A stretch of 31,383 bases of DNA from Chiloscyllium plagiosum. Taxonomy: Eukaryota. How positions within the stretch are numbered: position 1 is the stretch's first letter; every line of letters begins with the position of its first letter. Of the stretch, positions 5,615-31,383 are shown piece by piece. The translations under genes were made by a program, and so were the position numbers. Below the pieces are notes generated by a model. It was given only the letters and a program-made list of their open reading frames with translations, was not told where the DNA came from and ran no database searches. The stretch is from the NCBI RefSeq assembly GCF_004010195.1, contig NC_057718.1, positions 57,489,023-57,520,405 of the forward strand, in the 5' to 3' direction.

Positions 5615-5947
5615 TATTAGACACAAGGCCCACACCCTCATGCCTATTACTAGGCAGTTTGTTCACAAGGTATGGACATCATTCCCCCCCCCCTCCCCAT
5701 GATAAAATATCTGTAGATATTGGAAGAGGCCATTAAATAGCCTTTAAATTGCCACTTAAGTGTCTTGATTTGCTCATGTAGCAGTAGGTTAACCAATGAC
5801 TACATTTTCACTGGCAAAATCTTAGCAGATGCAGGTAGGTAATGAGCAGAGTACCTCCTGCTATGACATCAAAATTTATCTGTCCCACTCACTTGCCATA
5901 TACTCCCAGGAGATACTTAAAGTATCAACCATTGACATGCAGCAGAC

Positions 5948-5983
5948 ATTCCTGATGAAGGGCTTTTGCCCGAAATGTTGATT
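5948..5983 (+). ncRNA. Minimal type I hammerhead ribozyme motif, slightly decayed
   Basis: CTGATGA (5952-5958), A, perfect stem II GGGC-TTTT-GCCC, GAAA (5972-5975), then TGTT, consistent with CpG decay of CGTC. Confidence 0.75.
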
Positions 5984-6049
5984 TTCCTGCTCCTCGCATG
6001 CTGCCTGACCTGCTGTGCTTTTCCAGCACCACTCTAATCTTGACTCTGC
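5949..6049 (+). mobile_element. Mini Penelope-like insertion (HHR-bearing terminus only) with 13-bp TSD
   Basis: Homologous to 8972-9066, the 3' end of the PLE in this window. TSD CATGCAGCAGACA (5936-5948) / CATCCAGCAGACA (6050-6062). Confidence 0.85.
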
Positions 6050-6777
6050 CATCCAGCAGACAAACTTGCCTTTTGGAGTTCTTTTGCTGTTAATCTTAAA
6101 GCTCTCTTATTACTATATTATTGACCAGTGAAATTTGCTTTTGCCTAGTCACCTTATAAAATCTATCATAAGTCTTCCTTAGATTTGGGAAAATTCAGAG
6201 TATTAGAAAATTACCAATGTAACACCTTTATTTAGAAAGGCAAGAAGACAAAAAAAAAACTATAGGCCAGATCACTTTACATCTGTCACTGGGAAAATGC
6301 TAGATTCTATTATAAAGGATATAATGGCAAAGCATTTCGAAGTATATGATAAAATCAGGCAGAGTGACTTTATGAAGGGTAAATCATGCCTGACATATTT
6401 ACTAGAAATGTTTTTATGATGTAACAGGCATGATAGATAAATATGAAGCAGTGGATGTAATATATTTAGATTTCCAAAAGACATTTGATAACATACTGCA
6501 CATAAAATTACCTAATAAGATAAGAGCCATCGTGTTGGTGGTAGTATGCGAACATAGATAGAGGATTAGCTAACTAGTAGAAACCAGAGAGTTTAGATCA
6601 AGCTGGCATTTTCAGGATGGCAACTTGCAATGAGTAGAGTGACCCAGGGATCAGTGCTGTGGCACCAGTTATTTAGCTTATATATTAATGGCTTGGATGA
6701 CTGAAGCAAATGTGCGATCACCAAATTTGTGAATAAAGTGAGAAGACAAGTAGTGAAGATGACACAAAGAGTCTGCA

Positions 6778-9066
6778 CTTACTCACCCATCCTCCGAGGA
6801 CCCCTTCTCCCACTCAAACATATTCCATCTACCTGGGCACCCCGTGCTGGTCTGTTACCTGCTCTCGACCTTTTTACCTCACTGCCGCCGTGACATTGAC
6901 CACCTCAACCTGTCCATCCCTCTAACCCACTCCAATTTCTCACCCTCACAAAACACAGCCGTCCACTCTCTCCGCTCCAATCCCAACCTCACCATTAAAC
7001 CAGTGGACAACGCGCAGTGGTAATTTGGCGCACTGACCTCAACATGGCTGAAGCTATGCGCCAACTCACGGTCACTTTCTTCTACTAGCCCCTCACCCAT
7101 GACCTCACCTCCCATCACAAACCATCATCTCTCAGATTATCCACAACCTCATCATCTCAGGGGATCTCCCATCCACAGCTTCCAATCTCATAGTCCCGGA
7201 AACCCCCCGCCACCCGGTTCTACCTCTTACCCAGAATTCACAAACCTGACTGCCTCAGTTGACATATTGTCTCTGCCTGCTAGTGCCCCATCGAACTTAT
7301 CTCCTCAAAGCTTGACACTCTCCTGTCCCTCTTGGTCCAGGAGCTCCCCACATACATTCAGAGCACCACCCATGCCCTCCGCCTCCTCCATGACATTTGT
7401 TTCCCTAACCCCCAATGCCCCATCTTCACCATGGACACCCACTCTCTGTACATGTCCATCCACCATGGCGAAGGCTTCTAAGACTTTCATTTCTTCTTCT
7501 TTGCCGATCCAACCAGTATCCCTCCACTGACACACTCATTCAATTGGCGGAACTGGTTCTCAATCTCAACAGTTTCTACTTCGAATCCTCCCACTTCCTT
7601 CAGACCAAGGGATAGCCGTGGGCACCCGCATGGGCTCCAGCTATGCCTGCCTAATTGTGGAACGGTCCATTTTACGCAGCTACACTGGCACCATTCCCCA
7701 CTTTTTCCTCCGTTACTTTGATAACTGTATTGGTGCCACTTCATACTCCCACAAGGAGGTTGAACAGTTCATCGACTTCACAAACACCTTCCGCCCTGAC
7801 CTCAAGTTCACCTGGACCATTTCAGAGACTTCCTCCCCTTCCTGGGCCTCTCCATCTCCATCCTCGGCAACCATCTCAACACTGACATCTACTTCAGACC
7901 CACCGACTCCCACAGCTACCTGGACGACACCACCTCCCACCCCTTCTTCTGTAAAAATGCTATCTCTTACTCCTAATTCCTCTGCCTCTGCCATATCTGC
8001 TCCCAGGAGGAGCAATTCTACTCCAGGACATCCCAGATGGCCTCCTACTTCAAGGACCGCAATTTCCCCTCCCACGTGATCAACAATGCCCTCCAGTGCA
8101 TCTCTTCCACTTACCGCACCTCCACCCTTTAACCCCACCCCTCCAGCTGCAACAAGGATAGAATGCTCCTGCTCATCACCTTCCATCCCACTAATCTCCA
8201 GGTACTGCACATTATTCTCTGCCATTTCCGCCACCTACAATCAGACCCCACCACAAGAGATATATTTCCCTCCCCACCCCTATCAACATTCCCTCCATGA
8301 ATCCCTTGTTTGGTCCATGCCCCACCCATCAAACCACCCTCCACTCCTGGCACCCTCTGTTGCCACCACAGGAGATGTATAATCTGCGCCCACATTTTCC
8401 TTCTCACCTCTGTCCAAGGCCCCAGTGGATCCTTCCACATCCGGCAGAAGATTTTCCTGCATCTCCAAGCATGTCATTCACTGTATCAGTTGCTCTCAAT
8501 GTGGTCTCCTCTACATTGGGGAGACAGGGCGCCAACTCGTGGAATATTTCAAGGAACATCTCTGGGACACACGGACCAAACAATTCCATTGCCTTGTAGC
8601 CGATCACTTCAACTCCCCCTCCCACTCCGCCAAGGGCATGCCAGTCCTGGGCCTCCTCCACCGCCAAATTAAAGCCACCCGATGCCTGGAGGAAGAACGC
8701 CTCATCTTCTGCCTTGGGATCCTCCAATCAGATGGCATCAACATCAATTTCACCAGTCTCCTCATTTCCCCTCCCTTTACCTTCTCTCAGATCCAACCCT
8801 CCAACTTGGCACTTCTTGAACTGTCCTCCCTGTCCATATTCCCACCCACCTATCCACTCCACCCTCCCGTCTGATCCATCACCATCACCCCCGACACTGT
8901 AACTACCTATTACATTTCCAGCTACCTTCCCCCAGCCCCAACCCCATCCTGTTTATCTTCCCACCTCACATATTCCTGATGAAGCACAAATACTCGAAAC
9001 ATCAACTTTCCTGCTTCTCGGATGCTGCCTGACCTGCTGTGCTTTTCGAGCGCCATACTTTTCGAT
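6778..9066 (+). mobile_element. Penelope-like retroelement (Neptune-type linker), 5'-truncated, frameshifted RT plus GIY-YIG endonuclease
   Basis: RT motifs FTMDTHSLY, QTKGIAVGTRMGSSYACL, FLRYFDNCIG (decayed YxDD) and PTDSHSYLD; Cys linker CCHHRRCIICAH; GIY-YIG segment VIHCISCSQCGLLYIGETGR...EH...VADHFN...LEEERLIF...GIN. Short TGCA duplication at 6774-6777 / 9067-9070. Confidence 0.92.
8972..9007 (+). ncRNA. Decayed minimal hammerhead motif in the PLE 3' end
   Basis: ATTC-CTGATGA (8976-8982), disrupted stem II, GAAAC (8996-9000), ATC. Homologous to 5948-5983. Confidence 0.6.
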
Positions 9067-9670: not shown

Positions 9671-9788
9671 AACGTTCCTGTGCCACTGTCGGGAGAGGAG
9701 ATTTGCCTTCATGATGGTATTGTGTCAGTCCAGCTGGCTGCAGCAAGTGCCACCTCAGATACACTTCCTGGCATAATGTTGACTTGAA

Positions 9789-10757
9789 CATCAAGTGTCA
9801 CTACATACTGAGGTTCTACCTGTCCCCGGTGTTGCGAAGGATGGGCCTGGCCCCGCTGCTGCGGAATGCTCTGAGTAGTTGGACCGTTCCGTATCACCTG
9901 TCCTTTGTGGAGATGTTTATGAAGAAAAACACCTTTGACCACAAGTCCATCAGGAAGTGGTCAGCACGTAATGTCCTTGAGGAAAAGGAGAGGGCGGATC
10001 CTATCGAGCGGTTCCCTGAGCAGACTGTCAAAGTCATTTGGCAGAATGCCTCATCGCCAGAACTTTCCAACAAGCACCAAGACACAGCTTGGCTGGTGAT
10101 GAGAAGGGCTCCGCCTGTGAGATCCTTTATGCACGCCCGGACTCTCTTCTGCACCACACGCTGCCCTCAAAGCGGCTGTGGAGGGGACGAGACTGTCACA
10201 CACCTTCTGGAATGTGCCTATGCAGAAGAAGTCTGGAGCGGAATGCAGTGGTGTTTGTTGAGGTTCGTCCCGAGCAACTCCATGACGCGGGACTCTGTGC
10301 TCCACGGTGTGTTCCCCGGGACACACACCGAGACGAACATCAACTGTGCCTGGAGGATCATCAACTCGGTGAAGGACGCTCTCTGGGCGGTCCGACACCT
10401 GTTGATCTTCCAGCTGAAGGAGTTGACCCCGACTGAGTGTTGCAGACTGGCACGTTCCAAGGTCCAGGACTACATGTTGAAGGACGCGCTGAAGCTTGGG
10501 GCAGCTGCCGCCAAGGCCCGGTGGGGAAAGACCACCATGTAACATCTGCTTGCCTAAGCACAGGGGTCCGACGCAGTAAGGGGGCTCCGCAGACCCCCCT
10601 GCTAAATATGTGGATAGTAATCGTACAGACCTGTATATATGAATGATTACTCTGTCTCTGTATGCCAAGAAATGGAACGTTTACATATGTATGGCATGAC
10701 CAATTGTACAGATCATCAAAATATTTATGAATAAAGTATATTTTTGAAATAAAAAAA
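9789..10757 (+). mobile_element. Tx1/L1-clade LINE, 5'-truncated, with poly(A) and perfect 14-bp TSD
   Basis: TSD AATGTTGACTTGAA at 9775-9788 and 10758-10771. AATAAA signals and an A-tail precede the right TSD. Many CpGs are retained. Confidence 0.9.
9790..10542 (+). pseudogene. Open 3' part of LINE ORF2 (zf-RVT / CCHC C-terminal domain); no RT or endonuclease
   Basis: About 250 stop-free codons with W...LSNKHQDTAW...CPQSGCGGDETVTHLLEC...VW, typical of the L1/Tx1 C-terminus. The ORF-track start (TTG) lies inside the TSD and is not a real start. Confidence 0.85.
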
Positions 10758-11058
10758 AATGTTGACTTGAAAATATAGTTTAGATGAGGAGTCTTTAAGG
10801 AGGCACAAATATGCAGGATCCAGGAAATGGAACTGGTCACATAGCCAGACAGTGAGACCGCATACTAACTCTGGTAGAGATTTGCAGGCTTTTGAAGAAG
10901 GTTGGTGGACATGCTCCTGGCAAGGCTGGGAGCACTGACCAGTTTGCAAGAGAGCTTACATACAATGGATGAGAGCATGGAGGAGGCAAGCTGTAACTTG
11001 TGTTCAAAGTTAAAAATCACACAACACCAAGTTATAATCCAACAAGTTTATTTGGAAG

Positions 11059-11093
11059 CACAAGCTTTTGGAGCGCTGCACTTTCATCAGGTG
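11059..11093 (-). ncRNA. Decayed minimal hammerhead motif (left PLE arm)
   Basis: Minus strand CAC-CTGATGA-A-AGTGC-AGC-GCTCC-AAAA-GCTT-GTG. G12 is lost and stem II has mismatches. Confidence 0.7.
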
Positions 11094-11474
11094 GTTGTGG
11101 ACAATAAGATTGTAAGACACAGAATTTATAGCAAAAGTTTACAGTGTGATGTAACTGAAAGTCTATGTTGAAAAAGACCTGGATTGTTTGTTAATCTCTC
11201 ATCTTTTTAGAATGACCATGTTGGTTCCAGTTCTTTCATATGTTATACGCAAAACTTTTTAAAAAAACGTCAGATTCTCAAATGAACTTCAACAATTGGT
11301 GTCATGTCGGCCCAGACAATGTATTGAAGGTGTTAGTTCCCTGTGAGGTGTCTGTGCCACAATGGTCAGACTGATTGTAATCTAAAAACAGATTTACAGA
11401 ATCTTACATGGATTCATGCAGTTTTTGAGCAAAGTAAAATGTAATTCTGCAAGTACATATTCACCCCACAAACT

Positions 11475-11672
11475 TGTGTGTGTGTGTGTGTGTGTGTGAG
11501 AGAGGGGGTGGGATGGGGGGTGTATATGAGTATCTGTGAGGGTGTGTGTGTGTGAGAATGTAAAAGGGTTTAAGTCTGTGAGAGGGTGTGTGTGGGAGTG
11601 CATATACGAGTGTATGAGAGTGTGTGTGTCTGTCTGTCTGTCTGTCTGTCTGTGTGGGTCTGTCTCTGTGTG
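11475..11672. repeat. (TG)n and (TGTC)n microsatellite tract inside the PLE 3' UTR; CA-rich counterpart at about 12605-12760
   Basis: (TG)12 at 11475-11498, (TGTC)n at about 11627-11652, with degenerate TG/AG repeats between. Confidence 0.9.
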
Positions 11673-13126
11673 AGTATAGTGCAATGGGGTCACCTGTAGT
11701 GTGACATGAACCCAAGGTCCCAGCTGAGGCCATCCCTATGGGTACCGAACTTGGCCATCAGCCTCTGCTCAGCTACTTTTCGTTGTTGCCTGTCCCGAAG
11801 CCCATTTTGGAGTACGGTCACCCGAAGGTACGAGGTCGAATGTCCCGGACCACTGAAGTGTTCTTCAACTGGGAGGGAACACTCTTGTCTGTTGATTGTT
11901 CTGCGGTGTCCATTCATCTGTTGACGTAACCTCTGCTTGGTCTAGCCAATGTACCATGCCTCAGGACATCCTTGCCTGCAGCGTACGAGATAAATAATGT
12001 TGGCTGAGTTGCATGAGTATCTACCACGTACATGGTGGGAGGTGTCCCCACGTGTATGGTGGTAACTGTGTTGACATTCTGACACATCTTGCAGCATCTA
12101 CCATGACAAGGTTGGATGGTACTGTCCTGAAAACTGGGCATTTTGCTATGAACAATGATCTGTTGCGGTCTGGTGGCTGTTTCGAGGCAAGGAGTGGAGG
12201 TGTGGGGAAGGTCTTGGTGAGATGCTCATCTTCATTGATAATGTGTTGCAGGCTGCGAAGAACATGGCGTAGTTTTTCAGCTCCTGGGAATTACTGGACA
12301 ACGAAGGGTACCCTCTTGGTTGCAGCTCGGTTTGTCTCCGGAGGAGGTCGTTATGTTTGCTCACTGTGGCATGTTGGAACTTGCAGTCAATGAGTTGAGC
12401 ATCATATCCCCGTTCTTATGAGGGCATCTTGGACAACACTTCAGCGATCTGGGACATTCGACCTCAGACCTTTGGGTGACCGTCCTCCAAGGCGGACTTT
12501 GGGACAGGCAATAACGAAAAGTGTCGAGCAAAGGCTGATAGCCAAGAAATGGCCTTCCCTGGGACCTTGGGTTCATGTCACACTACAGGTGATCCCATTG
12601 CACGATATACACACATGGACAGAGACAGACACACACACACACCTCATACTCTCACACATACACTCTCACACACATCCCCTTTACACTGACACATACATAT
12701 ACACACACCCTCTCACAATCATAACCCCCGCGCATGCACGTGCGCACACATACACATATAAGTTTGTGGGGTAAATTTGTTCTTGCAGAATTACTTTTAC
12801 TTTGCTCAAAAACTGCATGAATCCATGTAAGATAATGTAAATCAGTTTTTTAGATTAGTATCAGTCTGACCATTGTGGCACAGACACCTCACAGGGAACT
12901 AACACCTTCAATACATTATTTGGGCTGACATAACACCAATTGTTAAAGTTCACTTGAGAATGTAACTTTTTAAAAAGAGTTTTGTGATTTACATATGAAA
13001 GAATTGAAACCAACATGGTCATTCTAAAAGATCAGAGACTTAACAAACAATCCAGGTCTTTTTCAATATATAATTTCAGTTACATCACACCGTAAACTTT
13101 TGCTATAAATTCTTAATTTCCACAGT

Positions 13127-13161
13127 CACCTGATGAAGGAGCAGCGCTCCGAAAGCTAGTG
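13127..13161 (+). ncRNA. Intact minimal type I hammerhead ribozyme motif (right PLE arm)
   Basis: CAC / CTGATGA (13130-13136) / A / GGAGC-AGC-GCTCC / GAAA (13151-13154) / GCTA / GTG. Helix I is CAC:GTG, a palindromic AGCT replaces helix III, and the predicted cleavage is after CUA (13158). Confidence 0.85.
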
Positions 13162-14748
13162 CTTCCAAATAAACCTGTTGGACTATAACCTGGTGTGTGA
13201 TTTTTAACTTTGTACACCCCAGTCCAAGACCGGCGTCTCCAAATCATGACTTGTGTACAGGACTACATGCAGAGTATGACAGCATTTAATCCAATATGAA
13301 TTGAGTAGCCAGCTTGATCAACATCACACTGAAGCACATCATCATAGAATCTTTCTTGAAAATTTTCACAGAAGCTCAAATTGCCACTGCTTTAGATTAG
13401 GAATCCATGTTGGCATAGGTTATGTTCCTGCAGTGTTTTTCAACAGAGGTCAGGAGTTGCTGAGGCACTGTCCCACGAGAGTGCCCTCCTTAAGTACAAT
13501 AGCATTGGGTTAGAGTTAGGGCTAACCCTACTCCTAAACCACCACCCATGCTGCTACTGCCCTTCTCAGTGCTGCAGAGCCAGCTGGGCTAGTCTGCACT
13601 GGCCCATGCAAAGATGCTGCTGTCCACAACAGAGTACTAGAGACTCTGAGTTGTTGAGGATCACCTATCATGGACATTGGAATTGCAATGTTAAAAGCTC
13701 AGCAGCTTTTCACCTCCCAAGTTGTCACCACGAAGAAGACTCTATAGGGACATTGGAAACAACAATGGAGCACATAGAATAGAGACAAAAAATATTATTT
13801 TTGAGTATTATGTACACACAGAATAGAGCTGTTTAAGCAAATTTTCCCAAGGCCTGGAACCTGCTTTGAAATTGCAACAAACATCAATGAAATTTGAATG
13901 GTGGAATAACTGGGCTGCTGTACTAGAACAAAAATCCTCAGGTCAGTGGGCACTATTTAACTGCAATTCTGAAAACTCTAGGTAAATGAATAGAAGAGGT
14001 CAGATTAAAAGTAGTAGTTTTAAAGATTATGTATTAATTTTGTAAACCTTGATTTTGCAAATCATGTTGTTCAGAATACTGATTATTCTAATTGAAATGC
14101 ACAATATTAATCATAATTAATAAAACAATGAACAAAAACATTATTAGTATATCCATTAGCACAACTAATACAGACTAGCCCACTCTGACATATGCCTAAA
14201 TTAGAAGCACATTTGGACTTTGTATAGATCTGTCACTATTCATGCAGAACTAAATTTGTGATCATTACAAGCTGTTTAGTTTATGTGGTCATTGTTTCCC
14301 AGCTGCATGGTATCGTCTGTGAGCTGTGATGACTTTGCACGCTTTCAATCTCTGCCACATTAATCACCTATTAACTATGCAGGGTGAGTCTCAGAATGTG
14401 TCTCAATATTCTTTTTATGAACTTAACAATAAACCAGTGTGCCATCTTATTTCAATAGTTTCTGCTTATGTGGCTTCATCCTTATTGTCTTTTGAATGAT
14501 AGTATCTCTGTTGGTAGAGGCCTCTTTATTTAGAAGCTTGTGTTTTTCTCATCCCACTTCTGCTTCAATCAAATCACATTAATCAGATATCAATATTGTT
14601 GTAAAATTGAACCCTATTCTTAGAGGAAAGAACTCGAAAGATGGCACATAAGTTTTGTTAGTGACTCATAATGTTTGACCTCAAACTGTTTTGAGAAGAC
14701 TTGAGATCCTAGTTCTTAAAATATGGATCCAATGCCCTTAATGACAAT

Positions 14749-14888
14749 AAAAAAGAAACCTGAAAGAACTGTAGATGCTGGAAATCAGAGACAAAAACAG
14801 AAATTTCTGGAAAAACTCAGCAGGACTGATAGCATCTGTGGAAAGAAATCAGAGCTAATATTTTGGGTCCAGTGACTGTTCTTCAGAA
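14749..14888 (-). mobile_element. Mini Penelope-like terminus with decayed HHR and 12-bp TSD
   Basis: Minus strand (AG)TT-CTGAAGA-ACAGTC-ACTG-GACCC-AAAA-TATT-AGCT...GATGCT...CCTGCTGAGTTTTTCCAG. TSD CTTAATGACAAT (14737-14748) / CTCAGTGACAAT (14889-14900). Confidence 0.75.
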
Positions 14889-15029
14889 CTCAGTGACAAT
14901 CTTGCCATAGACTCAGACCAACCTCTTAGGGAAACCCATTTTTGACTAGCTTTACCACATCAAACCCATTTTTAATCAGGTTGCCAGTGAATCCATTTGA
15001 TCAGTACATTAGGAATGGAAGATAGGAAG

Positions 15030-17929: not shown

Positions 17930-18794
17930 TATAGCAATAGAAGCATGGAGCAAATGAATGTGTTGCTGGAGAGATGATGCAGGAGGGAAGGCTTTAGATT
18001 TCTAAGGCATTTTGATGATTTCTGGAGGGGTGGGACCTATACAGGTTAAATAGGTTACATTTGACAGAAACAGAACCAACATTCCCTTGGGGAAGTTTGC
18101 CCAGAGAGTCCAGGGATGTGCAGGCTAGGTGAATTAGCCATGGGAAATGCAGTGTTACCTGGATGGGGTTGGCTCTAGATGGGATGCTACTTGGAGGGTT
18201 TAAACTAAACTGGCTCGGGTATGGGATTCTGACAAATAGTTCAAAGGGTAAAGAAACCGAGATGGAATTAAAATGCTAGGATGTAAATCTGGAAGTCGGA
18301 GGAAAATTGGGCTGGAATACAATGAAGTGAATTTAACAAGGCTAACTGAAATATATTTTAGTGCAAGGACCCTGAGGAGTAAGACAGATGAGCTGAAGGC
18401 ACAGCTTGGTAATGTGGGAGTATGATATCATAGCTATGAACAAGACTTGGCTGACAGATGGAAAGGATTGGCAGCTCAATATTCCTTGTTGCAGGCTCTT
18501 CAGATGAGATGAAGAGAGGGATGGATGGTTGGGGGGTGGGGGGAAAGCAGGGATGCAGGTGTCACAATATTGTTAAGGAATCAATTATAGCATTGAACAA
18601 GGATGATATCTTGGAGGGATCATGAAATGAGGCCATATGGGTAGAAGTAGCAAACACAAAAAAAGGCCATGACACTATTGGGCATGTACTGTAGACTCCC
18701 AGTCAGGGAGAGATATAGAATCAAATATATAATCAAGTTTCAGAGAAATGTAAGAATAATAAGGCAATACAAGTGATGATTTTAACTACCCAAA
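17930..18794 (+). mobile_element. CR1 fragment: end of ORF1 esterase and start of ORF2 AP-endonuclease
   Basis: Homologous to 30790-31383: CRREGFRFL, YFSARTLRSKTDEL, EYDIIA...TWL, DDFNYP (GDFN motif). Confidence 0.8.
18097..18199 (+). mobile_element. Internal V-SINE fragment with no head or tail, embedded in CR1
   Basis: TTGCCCAGAGAGTCCAGGGATGTGCAGGCTAGGTGAATTAGCCATGGGAAATGCAG...TTGGAGGGT matches the SINE body (reverse complement of about 18850-18940). Confidence 0.8.
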
Positions 18795-19113
18795 TCATAG
18801 ATTCCCTACAATGTGGAAGCAGCCCATTCAACCCATCAAGTACACACTAAACCTCCAATGAGCATCCCACCTAGAACCACCCCCATCCCTGTAAACCTGC
18901 ATTTCCCATGGCTAATCCACTTAGCCTGCACATCCCTGGTCCATTCACCATGACCAATCCTCCCTAATTGTCAAATCTTCAGACTTTGGGAAAGACCCCA
19001 TACAGACAGGGGGGAATATGCCAACTCCACACAGGCAGTAACCCGAGGGTGGAATCGAACCTGGGTCTTTGGTGCTGTGAGGCTGCAGTGATAACCATTA
19101 AGCCACTGTACCA
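18795..19113 (-). mobile_element. V-SINE (HE1-like) variant with an internally duplicated module
   Basis: Minus-strand A box TGGCTTAATGG, B box GGTTCGATTCC, V core, two AGG..GGATT.G.CATGG modules, and tail GTAGGGAATCTATGA. Confidence 0.88.
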
Positions 19114-22554: not shown

Positions 22555-22810
22555 TTGAAATTACAGCACAGAAACAGGCCTTTCTCCTTGCTAGGTCCAT
22601 AGCAATGTTTATGACTCCGCTGAAATTAACTAATCCTGTCTGTATGTTCTTCTCTTCCTTTCTTACTCAGGTTCTTAAAGCTCGCCCTTAACGACACTAG
22701 TGACATTTCCCTCAGTTATTCCAGCTTCTAACCATTATATTGATGAGGATGTTTTTTTCCTCAAATATTTATTTGTGATTATCTTATATTTATGACACCT
22801 AGTTGTACTC
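22555..22810 (-). mobile_element. Decayed CR1-type 3' end
   Basis: GAAATTACAGCACAGAAACAGGCC is the reverse complement of the GGCCTGTTTCTGTGCTGTA tail motif. Confidence 0.5.
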
Positions 22811-24759
22811 ACTCTGAATTGCTGTGACCCTCCAGTGCCCTTACAGTCTACATCACCCCCTCAAACCTTCTCTGATGCTCCAACCCTCCCCCAATCCACA
22901 CACGTGACCTGATTTCTCCACCTACACCGCACATAGCCAACACCATACTTACCAGAGTGAGCACTCCCCTTAAGTGGAAACATTGACCCAAATCTTTCAA
23001 AGACCTGCAATGACCACCAAATTGTCTCTGCTACCATTTTCCCCCACAGTGTTGGAACTCTACATTTTTGGCCAGGACTTCCAAACCTTACCTCTTTATA
23101 AATGTGGCATAAACCTGAAATCTGAGTCCTTCTTTATGGTGCAGTTTGTTTTTGGGAAGACAAACTATGACCCCTTGTATGGCACTACCTGCCACATTCT
23201 GGCAAGTTAATTTACTAACATGCTGAACTTTAAGTAATCTTTTGGTGTGTTAGTAAAAGAATGTGAGTGAGGTAAATGGGTAAGTGGTTCAGGTGCCAGC
23301 TGGTAGAGCAGTAGAGAGGTAAGGGGTTACAATGACAAAGTGATTGAGCGACAGAGTGGTATAAGGCTTGGTAGGTTAACTAGGTTGGCTGTAGATGGGT
23401 AAGGTGGAGAAATTAGGTCATGTTGAGGCATTGAGGGAAGGTTGGAGCGCCAGAGGAGATTTGAGGGATTTTGGAGATTGAAACATCAGGAAGGGTACTG
23501 GAGGGTCAGGGCAATTCAGCATGAGTCAAAAGGGAATTGGATGGTCAGGGAGGCTTCTGTGGTTGAGGGGTTCAGGAGAGACGGATCAATTCAGGGTCAG
23601 ATGATCAAGGAGTCACTGACATGTATGGTGTCAAATGTTTGAAAGTAGTTGGGAGTCAGTGGGTAGTTAGAGGAACAGGGAGCAAGTCAGGGGTCGGCTG
23701 ACAGGTCAGGGAGGGGAGTTAGGGGTTTTGGTTGTGCACTTCTGTAGAAGTTAGACATTCAGTTCAGGAAGGCAAGTGTTTGAACTCTTTGACTATAATT
23801 TAGAGTTGGAGATTTTTTCAGCAGGTTCTGAAGAACAGGAGAGTTTATGCCAGAAGATCAAACTTCCTGTGCAGGTCCCATGGAGTTAGTGCATTGGGTC
23901 CTCTGGGACAATCCTGACACATATCTTGAGTTTTACACCCATTTGCTGACGATCTGGAAACCAGGAGATCTGGGCTATATTCTTTACATCTACCCTATCA
24001 AAGCTATGAATGATTTTAAAGGCCTCTATTAGGATTACTTTCTAGCATTCTTTTTCATTGAGAAAAGAGCTTCAGGCTGAGCAACCTGACCTAATAGTTG
24101 TAAGCTCTCAGTTCTAGTACCTTCTTTTATGTTTCATGTGATAACTGTGGTTGACTGGCATGCACAATGCATTTGTTGCATCTGCTTTGTTATTTTTAAC
24201 TGGTCCCATGGATAATGTTATATAGTGCTGTTACCCCAGTCTTCTAGATAAGTGCCATACATAGAGAACATTGACAAAATTGATGGAAGTCACAGTACAA
24301 CAAAAGAAATGAGTGAATCCAAAATGAAAACTTGGTAAGCATGAAGGTGGCTCACATATCTATTTGAGATTGAGTTACATGTTAATGTCCATGCTGATTT
24401 GTCTTTAATGATATATGAAAATTGCCCCTTGGGGAAGTTGTACAGTTTAGTTGACTTTCGAGAATCTCAAATACTCAAAACAATAATGCCTGGCTTCACA
24501 TTACCAGCCTATTTGATATGCGATTAGATAATATAATATGAAAATAAATTATAATTAGAACTTGTTTGGATGTGTGTGGCTGAGTTATAAGAAAGAAGAA
24601 TTTGCATGATCCCATTTCTTTGAAAAATCTTGCAGAACTTGCAATAGATATTTACTTTACTATGCAGTGACTATAGCTCTGCTGCATTTGGTATGATTTC
24701 TCAAATTGTCATGATATGAATGATGAGCAGGTTTCAACATTGACAATTGATGAAGAGTG

Positions 24760-29349: not shown

Positions 29350-30165
29350 GTTACCATGAGGGCATGGCCCGTCCACAACCAAGAATACAGCAGTCTGAGC
29401 TTTTGTTGCAACAAGTTGGGCTTTTATGGCAACAAGCTTCCACTGCTGCACTGGGAGTTGGTTGCCTTGCCAGTGCAGCAGTAGAAAATGAGATATTGGC
29501 AACCAGTTGTTGCATCACAGGTAAATCCGTAAATGCTCCCATGCAGTTGACCATTACTTCTATACAAAAAAAGTTGGGCTCCAAACTCTGTACAGAATTT
29601 TGTGTCAAGTTGAAGCCAAATTCCTCTATGCTTCTTGCCAGTGGTAGGTCTGCCAGTACGCTAAGAATTTTGGCTTGTATGGCCATCAGCATCCTCTTAC
29701 AAGCTAGTTCATTGCAATCATCATCTGTGTTTCCTGTAGAAAAACTTGTCTGTGATCTTATCCTCCATTGACCTGGGCATATCACTTCCCATGGCAGATC
29801 CAGCCCACTTATGTCTGGTGACTCACCACATTTTGATTCTGACTGTATCCTATCTTCTATGATTTGATTTGGAGGTGCCGATGTTGAATAAAGTTAAAAA
29901 TCACCAGGTTATGGTCCAACAGGTTTATTTGGAAACACCTGTTTAAGGAGCAGCTCTTGGAAAGCTAGTGCTTCCAAATAAACCTGTTGGACTATAACCT
30001 GGTGTTGTGTGATTTTTAACTTCTAAGATTTGAACAGCATCAGAGTCTAAGCTGATGACTACAATTCTTAGATCAAGATGTAGGTTACCTTCATTTGAAA
30101 CTCGCAACCTTTCTCATATGGCTGCACTGCCTGTTCATGTGGCAGTCCTTGGGAACCTGAAAGTA
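29350..30165 (-). pseudogene. Decayed convergent partner ORF, probably the Harbinger accessory gene
   Basis: 144-codon open stretch (29785-29351) similar to the 10890-13300 remnant and tail-to-tail with the transposase fossil. No Myb/SANT domain seen directly. Confidence 0.5.
29868..30019. mobile_element. Palindromic mini-PLE (two inverted termini around one decayed HHR) with 14-bp TSD
   Basis: Both arms match 13127-13248. TSD CTTCTATGATTTGA (29854-29867) / CTTCTAAGATTTGA (30020-30033). The HHR at 29936-29970 has a mutated core, CTGTTTA. Confidence 0.88.
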
Positions 30166-30169
30166 GCTC

Positions 30170-31383
30170 CTGCTCCTCACAGAACGCGTTAGGGAAGTGG
30201 AGCTGGAGTTGGATGAACTGAGGATTATTCGAGAGGCTGAGAGGGTGATAGATAGAAGCTACAGGGACATAGTTACGCCAGAGAACAGAGATAGCTGGGT
30301 AACTGTTAGAGGTGGGAAGGGGAGGAAGCAGGCAGTGCAGGGATCCCCTGTGGTCATTCCCCTCAACAATAAGTATACCGCTTTGGATACTGTTGGGGGG
30401 GACAGCCTATAAGGGGTAAGCTGCAGTGACCGGGTCTCTGGCATGAGGTCCGGCTCAGAAGGGAAAGGGGGAGAGGAGGAGAGCGCTAGTTATAGGAGAC
30501 TCTATAGTTAGAGGGACGGACAGGCGGTTCTGTGGACATGGGCGAGACTCTCGGATGGTTTGTTGCCTCCTGGGTGCCAGGGTCCGAGACGTCTCGGACC
30601 ATGTCTTCAGAATCCTTAAGAGGGAGGGTGTGCAGCCAGAAGCCGTGGTGCACGTTGGCACCAACGATATAGGTAGGAAGAGGGGTGGGGAGGTCATTCA
30701 GGAGCTCAGGGAGTTAGGCTGGAAGCTAAAAGCTAGGATGGACAGAGTCATCATCTCTGGGTTGTTGCCGGTGCCACGTGACAGTGAGGCAAGGAATAGG
30801 GAGAGAGTGCAGTTGAACACGTGGCTGCAAGGATGGCTTCGGAGAGAGGGCTTCAGGTATTTGGACAATTCTGGGGTAGGTGGGACCTCTACAAACAAGT
30901 AGGTCTTTAGCTGAACCAGAGGGGTACCAAAATCCTGGGGGGATATTTGCTAATGCTCTTTGTCGGGGGGGTTTAAACTAATGCAGCAGGGGAATGTAGT
31001 TCCAGTGTACGGGAGGTTGAAGGTAGTGAGGTCAGAGATAGGTTTACAAGGTCGCGAGATGGCACCTGCAATCAGGATATTGGATTGAAATGTGTGTACT
31101 TCAATGCCAGGAGCATCTGGAATAAGATGGGTGAACTTGCAGCATGGGTTGGTACCTGGAATTTCGATGTTGTGGCCATTTCAGAGACATGACTCAAGGA
31201 GGGACAGGAATGGTTGTAGCAGATTTCAGGAATTAGATGTTTCAGTAAGAGTAGAGATGATGGTAAAAGAGGTGGGGGGGAGCGGGGTGTGGCATTGTTA
31301 ATCAAGGGTAGTATTAGAGCAGCTGAGATAACATTTGAGGACTTATCCGCTGAGGTAGTTTGGGCTGAGGTTAGTAACAGAAA
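30170..31383 (+). mobile_element. CR1 LINE 5' region: ORF1 (coiled coil plus SGNH esterase) and start of ORF2 AP-endonuclease; runs off the window
   Basis: ELELDELRIIREAE, IPLNNKYTAL, LVIGDSIVRG, VVHVGTND, WLRREGFRYLD; then CVYFNARSI...FDVVAISET*L. Contains stops and frameshifts. Confidence 0.92.

What the first reader, a model, noticed from the sequence alone, without database searches (positions are those of the whole stretch)
5936..6062. 101-bp TSD-flanked insertion that starts at hammerhead helix I
Seen: the insert is only the HHR plus about 65 bp of downstream terminus of the PLE family at 6778-9066. It has a 13-bp TSD (one mismatch) and begins 3-4 nt before CTGATGA. The inserts at 14749-14888 and 29936 (plus arm) start at the same structural position despite different sequences. 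Inference: the boundary is set by ribozyme structure rather than random 5' truncation, so these may be a class of short HHR-headed, PLE-mobilised units. Short HHR repeats are known in animals, so novelty would lie in the precise boundary rule.
Basis: partly seen in the sequence, partly recalled or inferred. Interest (0 to 1): 0.7.

Follow-up and report, generated by a model that had tools for sequence, protein, structure and literature searches.

The report
Penelope stub beginning at transcript start
This 101-base insertion is a real, old end-piece of an abundant Penelope-type jumping gene in a shark-like genome, and it begins at the front edge of a small ribozyme motif likely because the element's messenger RNA starts there and the copying enzyme ran off that end, rather than because the ribozyme's shape sets the boundary.

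Summary
Real: insert 5949-6049, 13-bp TSD (12/13), minimal hammerhead from 5952, present in three species. It is the terminus (pLTR) of a Neptune/Nematis-type Penelope-like element, 81% like the end of the copy at 6778-9066. The comparison cases are weaker than stated: the second insert runs to 14891; 29936 is an inversion join with 3-nt helix I microhomology. For this family hundreds of contigs with unique flanks begin at -4 from CUGA, the A of an initiator-like motif, with G as majority letter before it in 3 of 3 DNA runs (cap hint, confounded). Against a helix I rule: family B shows no sharp pile-up there, and 0 of 28 hammerhead hits in two unrelated families start there. Family B RNA is polyadenylated 22-60 nt short of the genomic ends, so copying starts internally. 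Best reading (0.6): run-off cDNA of the uncut 5' end of the mRNA. The scan noted this before in this and other genomes; those notes led me to it. Not found in 7 literature searches.

The parts
5936..5948 (+). Left TSD copy; its last 1-2 letters also match the element (5' microhomology)
5949..6049 (+). 101-bp stub of PLE family A terminus (start may be 5948, the A at -4, or 5947)
5948..5951 (+). Helix I 5' strand; 5948 is also the A of an initiator-like motif in the family's native context (predicted transcription start)
   Evidence: sequence; loose-end consensus; inference
5952..5983 (+). Minimal type I hammerhead: CUGAUGA 5952-58, unpaired A, helix II 5960-63/5968-71, GAAA 5972-75, decayed palindrome 5975-78, predicted cut after 5979, helix I 3' strand 5980-83
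   Evidence: not found by Rfam
5984..6049 (+). Downstream terminus, ending at the nearer of two family 3'-end zones about 33 nt apart (no tail)
   Evidence: loose ends behind 6032, 6047, 6058
6050..6062 (+). Right TSD copy, 7 letters in register with the element terminus (3' microhomology)
6778..9066 (+). 5'-truncated, broken RT + CX4CX2C linker + GIY-YIG PLE copy of a related subfamily; hammerhead at 8976; 4-nt repeat TGCA at its edges
14749..14891 (-). Family C stub, 143 bp, TSD 8 of 9; starts G-AGTT before a degenerate box (A at -4 after a G)
29868..30019 (.). Family B inverted stub in a 14-bp TSD; join at 29936-38 uses the self-complementarity of helix I
11007..13248 (.). Family B inverted long insertion, TSD 10 of 11, about 35-bp tail on one arm only; both hammerheads (11090 -, 13130 +) keep long upstream sequence
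11125..11130 (-). TATAAA, 32 nt before the A at -8 of the family B hammerhead (predicted TATA box)
   Evidence: spacing rule recalled
11032..11052 (-). AATAAA (11052-47) and poly(A) site near 11032-33 in the family B terminus
   Evidence: 269 + 242 of 2103 RNA reads carry poly-T loose ends here

Best explanation
The insert is a TSD-flanked end-piece of a Penelope-like retrotransposon, likely made when the element's reverse transcriptase started inside its RNA about 100 nt from the 5' end and ran off the predicted transcription start, which in this family would lie at the A four bases before the CUGA box, so that the hammerhead was copied uncut. Steps. Shown: TSD, hammerhead motif, kinship to an RT/GIY-YIG element, age (shared by three species), copy spans the predicted cut site. 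Taken from papers on other PLEs: the endonuclease nicks the target and RT starts at two internal RNA sites that bound the 'tail', on unprocessed RNA (PMC11167929); the promoter and start lie in the pLTR (PMC2377424, PMC3846280, PMC8557442). Inferred: the template is the pLTR at the 5' end of a transcript; the cDNA runs off the capped end like a retroviral strong-stop product and is joined to the target (here through 1-2 nt of microhomology, with no extra G); long copies would need a jump to the 3' pLTR. Helix I coincides with the edge because the hammerhead sits at the very start of this family's RNA. The stub is a dead by-product, not a self-spreading unit.
For: (1): contigs whose match begins at 5948 (-4) number 606, 670 and 657 in runs X1, X9, X15, with loose parts of median 255 nt, agreement 0.30-0.31 and AT-rich consensus, i.e. 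mostly unique flanks; no place inside the insert reaches the six rows shown per DNA run (lowest shown 264, 303, 270). (2) The family's native context from the 5947 class gives TCATTCC, a 7 of 7 match to YYANWYY with the A at -4 (consensus recalled). (3) The majority letter before that A is G in 3 of 3 DNA runs; with C excluded and window composition this happened in 0 of 20000 draws and needs at least 10% forced G; an extra G marks cap copying at L1 5' junctions (PMC11702581, passage). The family C stub also reads TSD-G-A(-4). (4) Family B RNA is polyadenylated about 14 nt after AATAAA, at +59 (511 of 2103 reads), whereas the three arms measured end at +81, +84 and +119 without an A tail: priming cannot be at the mature 3' end. 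(5) Family B has TATAAA 32 nt before an A at -8, outside the 3-bp helix I; TATAWA occurs once per 1250-1500 nt in the window. (6) Two 3'-end zones about 33 nt apart in family A match the two RT start sites of PMC11167929. (7) 0 of 28 hits in two unrelated hammerhead families start at helix I, as expected if the edge follows a family-specific start and not the fold.
Against: No RNA 5' end was mapped. The reference has no family sequence upstream of 5947, so the two classes pool true starts, copies ending a little further up and long copies; in the RNA run the letter before -4 is T, from a long subfamily, and a subfamily with a native G would mimic the cap signal; the three species share old insertions and are not independent. 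This insert itself has no extra G. YYANWYY is loose (once per 34 nt in the long copy's 3' region, 78-90 nt window-wide), and the long copy at 8972 matches only 6 of 7 and shows no TATA at -31. One search shows no sharp pile-up at -8 for family B either: depth roughly halves between +9 and -12 (792 to 422 reads in RNA), but reference mismatches at 11102-03 and subfamilies with other upstream sequence confound it. Poly(A) reads may come from host genes ending in a B copy, and no poly-T ends were listed for family A. In D. virilis Penelope the start lies 46 nt before a 75-bp intron that ends at helix I, so start = helix I edge is not general. PMC3846280 argues for antisense templates and self-priming for inverted ends.
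Confidence: 0.6

Rival explanations
1. One reading: the ribozyme fold sets the edge, e.g. a 5'-3' exonuclease stops at the foot of helix I in a protein-bound or dimeric hammerhead, and RT then runs off that trimmed end.
For: Starts at -3/-4 (A), -5 (C), -3 (B join) each equal the helix I length; X9 shows low-agreement loose ends at -2 and -3 for family B, 112 and 142 contigs, and the class clipped at 11079 turns AT-rich after -3 in X9 and X15; the PAc hammerhead is protein-assisted.
Against: Helix I pair probabilities 0.001-0.014; X1 and X15 list no loose ends at -2/-3, and the X9 consensus strings look partly like other subfamilies' upstream sequence; 0 of 28 in outside families; a trimmed RNA has no cap, so no G excess is expected; the B join is explained by microhomology.
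Confidence: 0.13
2. Ordinary random 5' truncation plus bias: subfamilies share sequence from helix I onward and differ just upstream, so alignments end there, and a reader looking for hammerheads picks copies that begin with one.
For: Subfamilies with different upstream sequence exist for A and B; only 2 of 5 free ends in the window are at helix I, P up to 0.08 at high truncation rates; the C TSD is weak; most PLE insertions are described as 5'-truncated.
Against: The edge here is fixed by a 13-bp TSD, not by alignment; the -4 class has long unique flanks and outnumbers any internal position at least twofold; tandem joints return to 5948 in 14, 10 and 14 contigs.
Confidence: 0.14
3. A SINE-like or retrozyme-like non-autonomous family: short masters that start at helix I are transcribed and copied by PLE enzymes in trans.
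For: pLTRs suffice for mobilisation in trans (PMC3846280); retrozymes derive from pLTRs and have dispersed monomers (bioRxiv 2026.07.22.740005); head-to-tail joints 6032 to 5948 exist.
Against: Single, non-tandem; starts about 30 nt before the predicted cut, where a processed monomer would start at it; RNA reads that best fit this copy run on upstream into shared sequence (agreement 0.47-0.48); a stub starting at the transcription start would lack upstream promoter sequence.
Confidence: 0.08
4. The edge is a splice acceptor or template-switch point at helix I, copied from a spliced RNA.
For: The D. virilis intron ends at helix I; locus L063 lacks a 43-nt GT...AG segment ending 3 nt before CUGA.
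Against: No AG directly before -4 in family A's native context or before -3 in B; no exon-like piece between TSD and helix I; no RNA joints listed.
Confidence: 0.05

Closest known systems
5'-truncated / solo pLTR insertions of EN+ Penelope-like elements, Neptune/Nematis type (Craig et al. 2021, PMC8557442, passages; Arkhipova et al. 2013, PMC3846280, passages and sections 6 and 11)
   Same: RT + Cys linker + C-terminal GIY-YIG parent, TSD, inverted truncated arm, one-sided 30-40 bp tail, TATA/initiator in the pLTR
   Different: These papers describe variable truncation and ascribe solo pLTRs to recombination or deletion; the parts read give no preferred 5' edge or run-off model
[quoted passage not shown]
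   Same: Core boxes, unpaired base before helix II, short helix I, palindromic helix III, thousands of single motifs thought to be truncated PLEs
   Different: No boundary analysis, no shark; proposes cleavage and circular templates, whereas this copy spans the cut site and starts 30 nt before it
Poseidon of Anolis carolinensis, PAc (Frangieh et al. 2024, PMC11167929, parts 1-2 of 4)
   Same: Internal RT initiation at two sites about 110-150 nt behind the hammerhead, unprocessed RNA as template, no RNA ends at the cut
   Different: Other clade; addresses 3' ends only; ORF starts in the hammerhead, which was not shown here
Non-LTR retrozymes (Cervera and de la Pena 2020, PMC7229834, passages; Li et al. 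bioRxiv 10.64898/2026.07.22.740005, parts 1-3 of 5)
   Same: Short, non-coding, type I hammerhead, PLE-derived, one chondrichthyan included
   Different: Defined by tandem units, mostly canonical hammerheads, and circular RNA; this is single, minimal and does not start at the cut
Full-length L1 5' junctions with cap-derived extra G (PMC11702581, passages); retroviral minus-strand strong-stop DNA (recalled, no call)
   Same: Run-off at the capped RNA end
   Different: L1 primes at the poly(A) tail; strong-stop DNA is tRNA-primed and not integrated on its own

Membership tests
EN+ Penelope-like element (Neptune/Nematis type) | Parent ORF with RT and C-terminal GIY-YIG | tested here: met
   tblastn of shark and invertebrate RT/GIY-YIG proteins covers about 6780-8750; Pfam GIY-YIG on the window frame only E 0.021, below cut-off; the link from stub to parent is 68 of 84 bases
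EN+ Penelope-like element (Neptune/Nematis type) | CX2-5CX2C linker between RT and EN | tested here: met
   CHHRRCIIC in window frame 8301; same motif in P0002, P0010, P0017
EN+ Penelope-like element (Neptune/Nematis type) | Placement in the Neptune versus Nematis clade by RT tree | not tested
   no reference set at hand
EN+ Penelope-like element (Neptune/Nematis type) | TSD, partial tandems, inverted arms, optional 30-40 bp tail | tested here: met
   TSD; tandem and fold-back joints and two 3'-end zones for family A; one-sided tail and inversions for family B
Minimal type I hammerhead | CUGANGA and GAAA boxes, unpaired base, helix II, NUH | tested here: met
   helix II pair probability 0.99
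Minimal type I hammerhead | Helix I of 4-5 bp | tested here: inconclusive
   3 of 4 positions can pair; probabilities 0.001-0.014
Minimal type I hammerhead | Palindromic helix III for dimer folding | tested here: not met
   ATGT in this copy, ACAT in the long copy; the pair points to a decayed CpG palindrome (inference)
Minimal type I hammerhead | Self-cleavage | not testable with these tools
   needs an in vitro assay
Non-LTR retrozyme | Tandem units each with a hammerhead | tested here: not met
   single copy between TSDs
Non-LTR retrozyme | Unit bounded by the cleavage site | tested here: not met
   starts about 30 nt before the predicted cut at 5979/5980
Non-LTR retrozyme | Circular RNA | not testable with these tools
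   only a poly(A) single-cell run was laid
SINE-like non-autonomous family | Own subfamily with diagnostic changes, separate from long copies | not testable with these tools
SINE-like non-autonomous family | Structural-RNA head or A tail | tested here: not met
   no Rfam match at the insert; no A tail in the sequence

The most novel reading that the evidence does not exclude
Shark PLE families place the hammerhead at the first bases of a capped mRNA whose start and poly(A) site bound a repeat at both RNA ends; RT primes at the target from an internal site behind the 5' repeat, makes a strong-stop-like cDNA, and either integrates it (the abundant 100-140 bp stubs), folds back through helix I (inverted stubs) or jumps to the 3' repeat (long copies and pLTR tandems). 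Stubs would then be a fossil map of start sites and a record of an LTR-like first-strand transfer in a target-primed element.
Probability: 0.4. Interest if true: 0.65.

Novelty: new variant of a known kind. Interest (0 to 1): 0.4.

Why it matters
How Penelope-like elements make their pseudo-LTRs, inverted arms and tails is an open question; the first in vitro work (PMC11167929) explains only the 3' ends. If the short stubs are run-off copies of the capped RNA start, they give base-precise start sites for each family from DNA alone, show that the uncut hammerhead RNA is the template in a vertebrate germ line, and make a strand-transfer model testable. This one insertion is old, decayed and most likely inert.

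Tried and rejected
Rfam found no hammerhead in the window (2 weak unrelated matches). No RNA holder was listed for the locus. Neither lay listed a place where many RNA molecules begin or end; the library is poly(A) single-cell, not a 5'-end method, so this says nothing on start or cut. No empty site was seen: contigs of organisms B and C run from both flanks into the insert. Family A motif scans: 5 hits in viral contigs, all chance by inspection, 0 in metagenome contigs, 0 in prokaryote genomes; no PLE relative in viral contigs. One search gave 68 loci; 26 fell into the two repeat families used (28 hits), 42 were left out as single loci, repeats of one locus or chance matches; 11 of 16 M1 hits and 1 of 12 M2 hits are cut by contig ends, some M1 loci repeat across samples, and PLE identity rests on structure plus one weak GIY-YIG match (E 0.011). 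The idea that the terminus encodes the ORF start (MLPDLL...) failed: 0 of 120 proteins. That the C stub is the 3' end of the PLE remnant at 15612-15194 was considered; a TSD-like pair and unrelated-looking sequence between argue against it, but the TSD is weak, so it is not excluded. One search's microhomology test was one base out of register and was redone. The bacterial promoter scan was irrelevant. An RT stall at the hairpin was rejected because it would stop at the 3' foot. Supplements of all papers were not seen and may hold boundary alignments; Lunse et al. 2017 on dimeric PLE hammerheads is recalled only.

Full report
Observation. The insert is real. A 13-bp repeat with one mismatch lies at 5936-5948 and 6050-6062; 3 of 1000 random placements in the window do as well. 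Between them are 101 bp: three bases, CTGATGA at 5952, an unpaired A, a 4-bp helix II, GAAA, a four-base spacer with the predicted cut after 5979, the 3' strand of helix I, and 66 bp more. Contigs of two other species run from both flanks into the insert, with 10 of about 370 and 18 of about 375 differences in the left flank, so it is old and no empty site is available. Both edges carry microhomology with the element: 1-2 bases at the 5' side and 5-7 in register at the 3' side, against backgrounds of 0.9% and 0.06%.

What it is. The stub matches the end of the copy at 6778-9066 at 68 of 84 bases. That copy is a broken RT, CX4CX2C linker, GIY-YIG element whose best named matches are shark and ray proteins, i.e. 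an endonuclease-positive Penelope-like element of the Neptune/Nematis type as defined in PMC8557442 (passages). The family is very abundant: 140,000-165,000 contigs per run lie on the 3.8-kb stretch. Loose ends show two 3'-end zones about 33 nt apart; the stub ends at the nearer one. Joints show head-to-tail returns to 5948 (14, 10, 14 contigs) and a fold-back from 5947 to 5985 (1, 6, 3 contigs).

The second stub is 14749-14891 with a weak 9-bp TSD (61 of 1000 random placements reach 9 or more) and starts 5 nt before its box. The arm at 29936 is an inversion join: the minus arm ends on the complement of the first three bases after the predicted cut, which by helix I complementarity are the same letters as the start of the plus arm. 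This is a microhomology join and not a third free end. Three other hammerhead copies in the window run far upstream. Two of five free ends in a 5-nt zone has P 0.001-0.08 depending on truncation rate.

Is the edge preferred? In one search, contigs whose match begins at 5948 (-4) number 606, 670 and 657, with long, low-agreement, AT-rich loose parts; those at 5947 number 792, 887 and 746 and show family sequence. No internal position reaches the rows shown. This suggests a real preference for family A, but the reference has no family sequence upstream, so near-upstream ends and long copies are pooled in, and only 24 of 9921 rows are visible. In one search the reference (family B, 11030-11230) did include upstream sequence: low-agreement loose ends were at -2 and -3 in X9 (112, 142), -9 in X1 (78) and -11 in X15 (88), several resembling other subfamilies; depth roughly halves between +9 and -12, with reference mismatches as a confound. 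There is no sharp, shared pile-up at helix I. As an outside control, a metagenome scan gave two unrelated minimal-hammerhead repeat families with PLE-like features; 0 of 12 and 0 of 16 hits begin at helix I (12 of the 28 are cut by contig ends 11-75 nt upstream).

Mechanism. My reading before one search was an RT stop or RNA end at the structure. Earlier notes of this scan proposed run-off at a capped transcription start, and I tested what I could. For: the native context gives a 7 of 7 initiator match with the A at -4 (consensus recalled; such matches occur every 34-90 nt); the majority letter before that A is G in 3 of 3 DNA runs, which composition alone did not give in 20000 draws, and an extra G marks cap copying in L1 (PMC11702581, passage); family B has TATAAA 32 nt before an A at -8. 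My own addition: 511 of 2103 RNA reads on family B carry poly-T loose ends at 11032 and 11038, about 14 nt past AATAAA and before a GT-rich tract, while the genomic arms measured end 22, 25 and 60 nt further on with no A tail. The DNA copies therefore were not primed at a mature 3' end; this fits internal initiation on unprocessed RNA as shown for PAc (PMC11167929), and the one place a mature transcript holds that sequence is behind its 5' pLTR. Copying from there to the RNA start gives a 100-140 bp stub with an uncut hammerhead. Against: no RNA start was mapped, this insert has no extra G, a G-bearing subfamily could mimic the signal, the RNA run shows T, the poly(A) reads may be host transcripts, read-through RNA would also hold the tail, and in D. 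virilis the start is about 120 nt upstream of helix I. A structural cause is weak: helix I pairs with probability 0.001-0.014, the stub folds no better than shuffles (76 of 200).

Comparison with what is known. Single minimal hammerheads from truncated PLEs are described (PMC4209133, parts 1-2); so are TSDs, inverted arms, tails, solo pLTRs and TATA/initiator motifs in pLTRs (PMC3846280; PMC8557442; PMC8969392, passages) and PLE-derived retrozymes (PMC7229834, passages; bioRxiv 2026.07.22.740005, parts 1-3). PMC6155905 (passages) added nothing on sharks. The insert fails the retrozyme tests. Seven searches of the open-access library showed no paper on a preferred 5' edge of PLE stubs or a run-off model; subscription papers, repeat databases and supplements were not seen.

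Verdict. Observation partly confirmed; interpretation partly supported. A stub of a known kind of element, with a probably preferred 5' edge that is better explained by the transcription start (0.6) than by ribozyme structure (0.13), chance and bias (0.14), a separate short family (0.08) or splicing (0.05). Interest 0.4; 0.65 if the strong-stop model holds.

Noticed in passing
window 11032-11052 (-): Family B terminus holds a working poly(A) signal: AATAAA, a site about 14 nt on, then a GT-rich tract; 511 of 2103 RNA reads end there in poly(A), about 30 nt behind the uncut hammerhead site.
   Followed up: partly
window 6005-6026, 9030-9051, about 14826-14805 (-): The block best conserved between families A and C (CTGAC, pyrimidine run, TTTCCAG) looks like a branch point and 3' splice site; no RNA joint was listed.
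   Followed up: partly
L063:441-500 against L043, L053: A copy of an unrelated marine hammerhead family lacks a 43-nt GT...AG segment ending 3 nt before CUGA, like the D. virilis Penelope intron that ends at helix I; possibly a spliced retrocopy.
   Followed up: partly
L006:about 394-465: About 70-bp hammerhead stub with a 14-bp TSD that starts 20-22 nt before CUGA; L042 is an inverted pair and L016 a tandem of such repeats.
   Followed up: partly
window 15612-15194 (-) and 12317-11603 (-): Two more PLE ORF remnants (linker and GIY-YIG); the first ends 300 bp upstream of the family C stub, the second lies inside the family B inverted insertion.
   Followed up: partly
joints 5947-5985 and 6032-5948: Family A also forms helix I fold-back joins and head-to-tail repeats that return to -4, in all three species.
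   Followed up: partly
window 9715-10542 (+) and 30447-30902 (+): LINE remnants: a zf-RVT 3' ORF and a GDSL/esterase-type ORF1 (Pfam).
   Followed up: no
window 22807-23526, 18110-18939, 89-181 with 19014-19106: Other inverted repeat pairs (76-87% alike); the last pair looks like a tRNA-headed SINE (recalled, not tested).
   Followed up: no
window 17636 (-) and 30052 (+): Two look-alike 40-nt stretches with a CTGANGA box but no hammerhead helices; blastn found no match between them.
   Followed up: partly
L040, L067, L014, L015 group: Further hammerhead-like motifs in metagenome contigs, one with an inverted copy just upstream.
   Followed up: no
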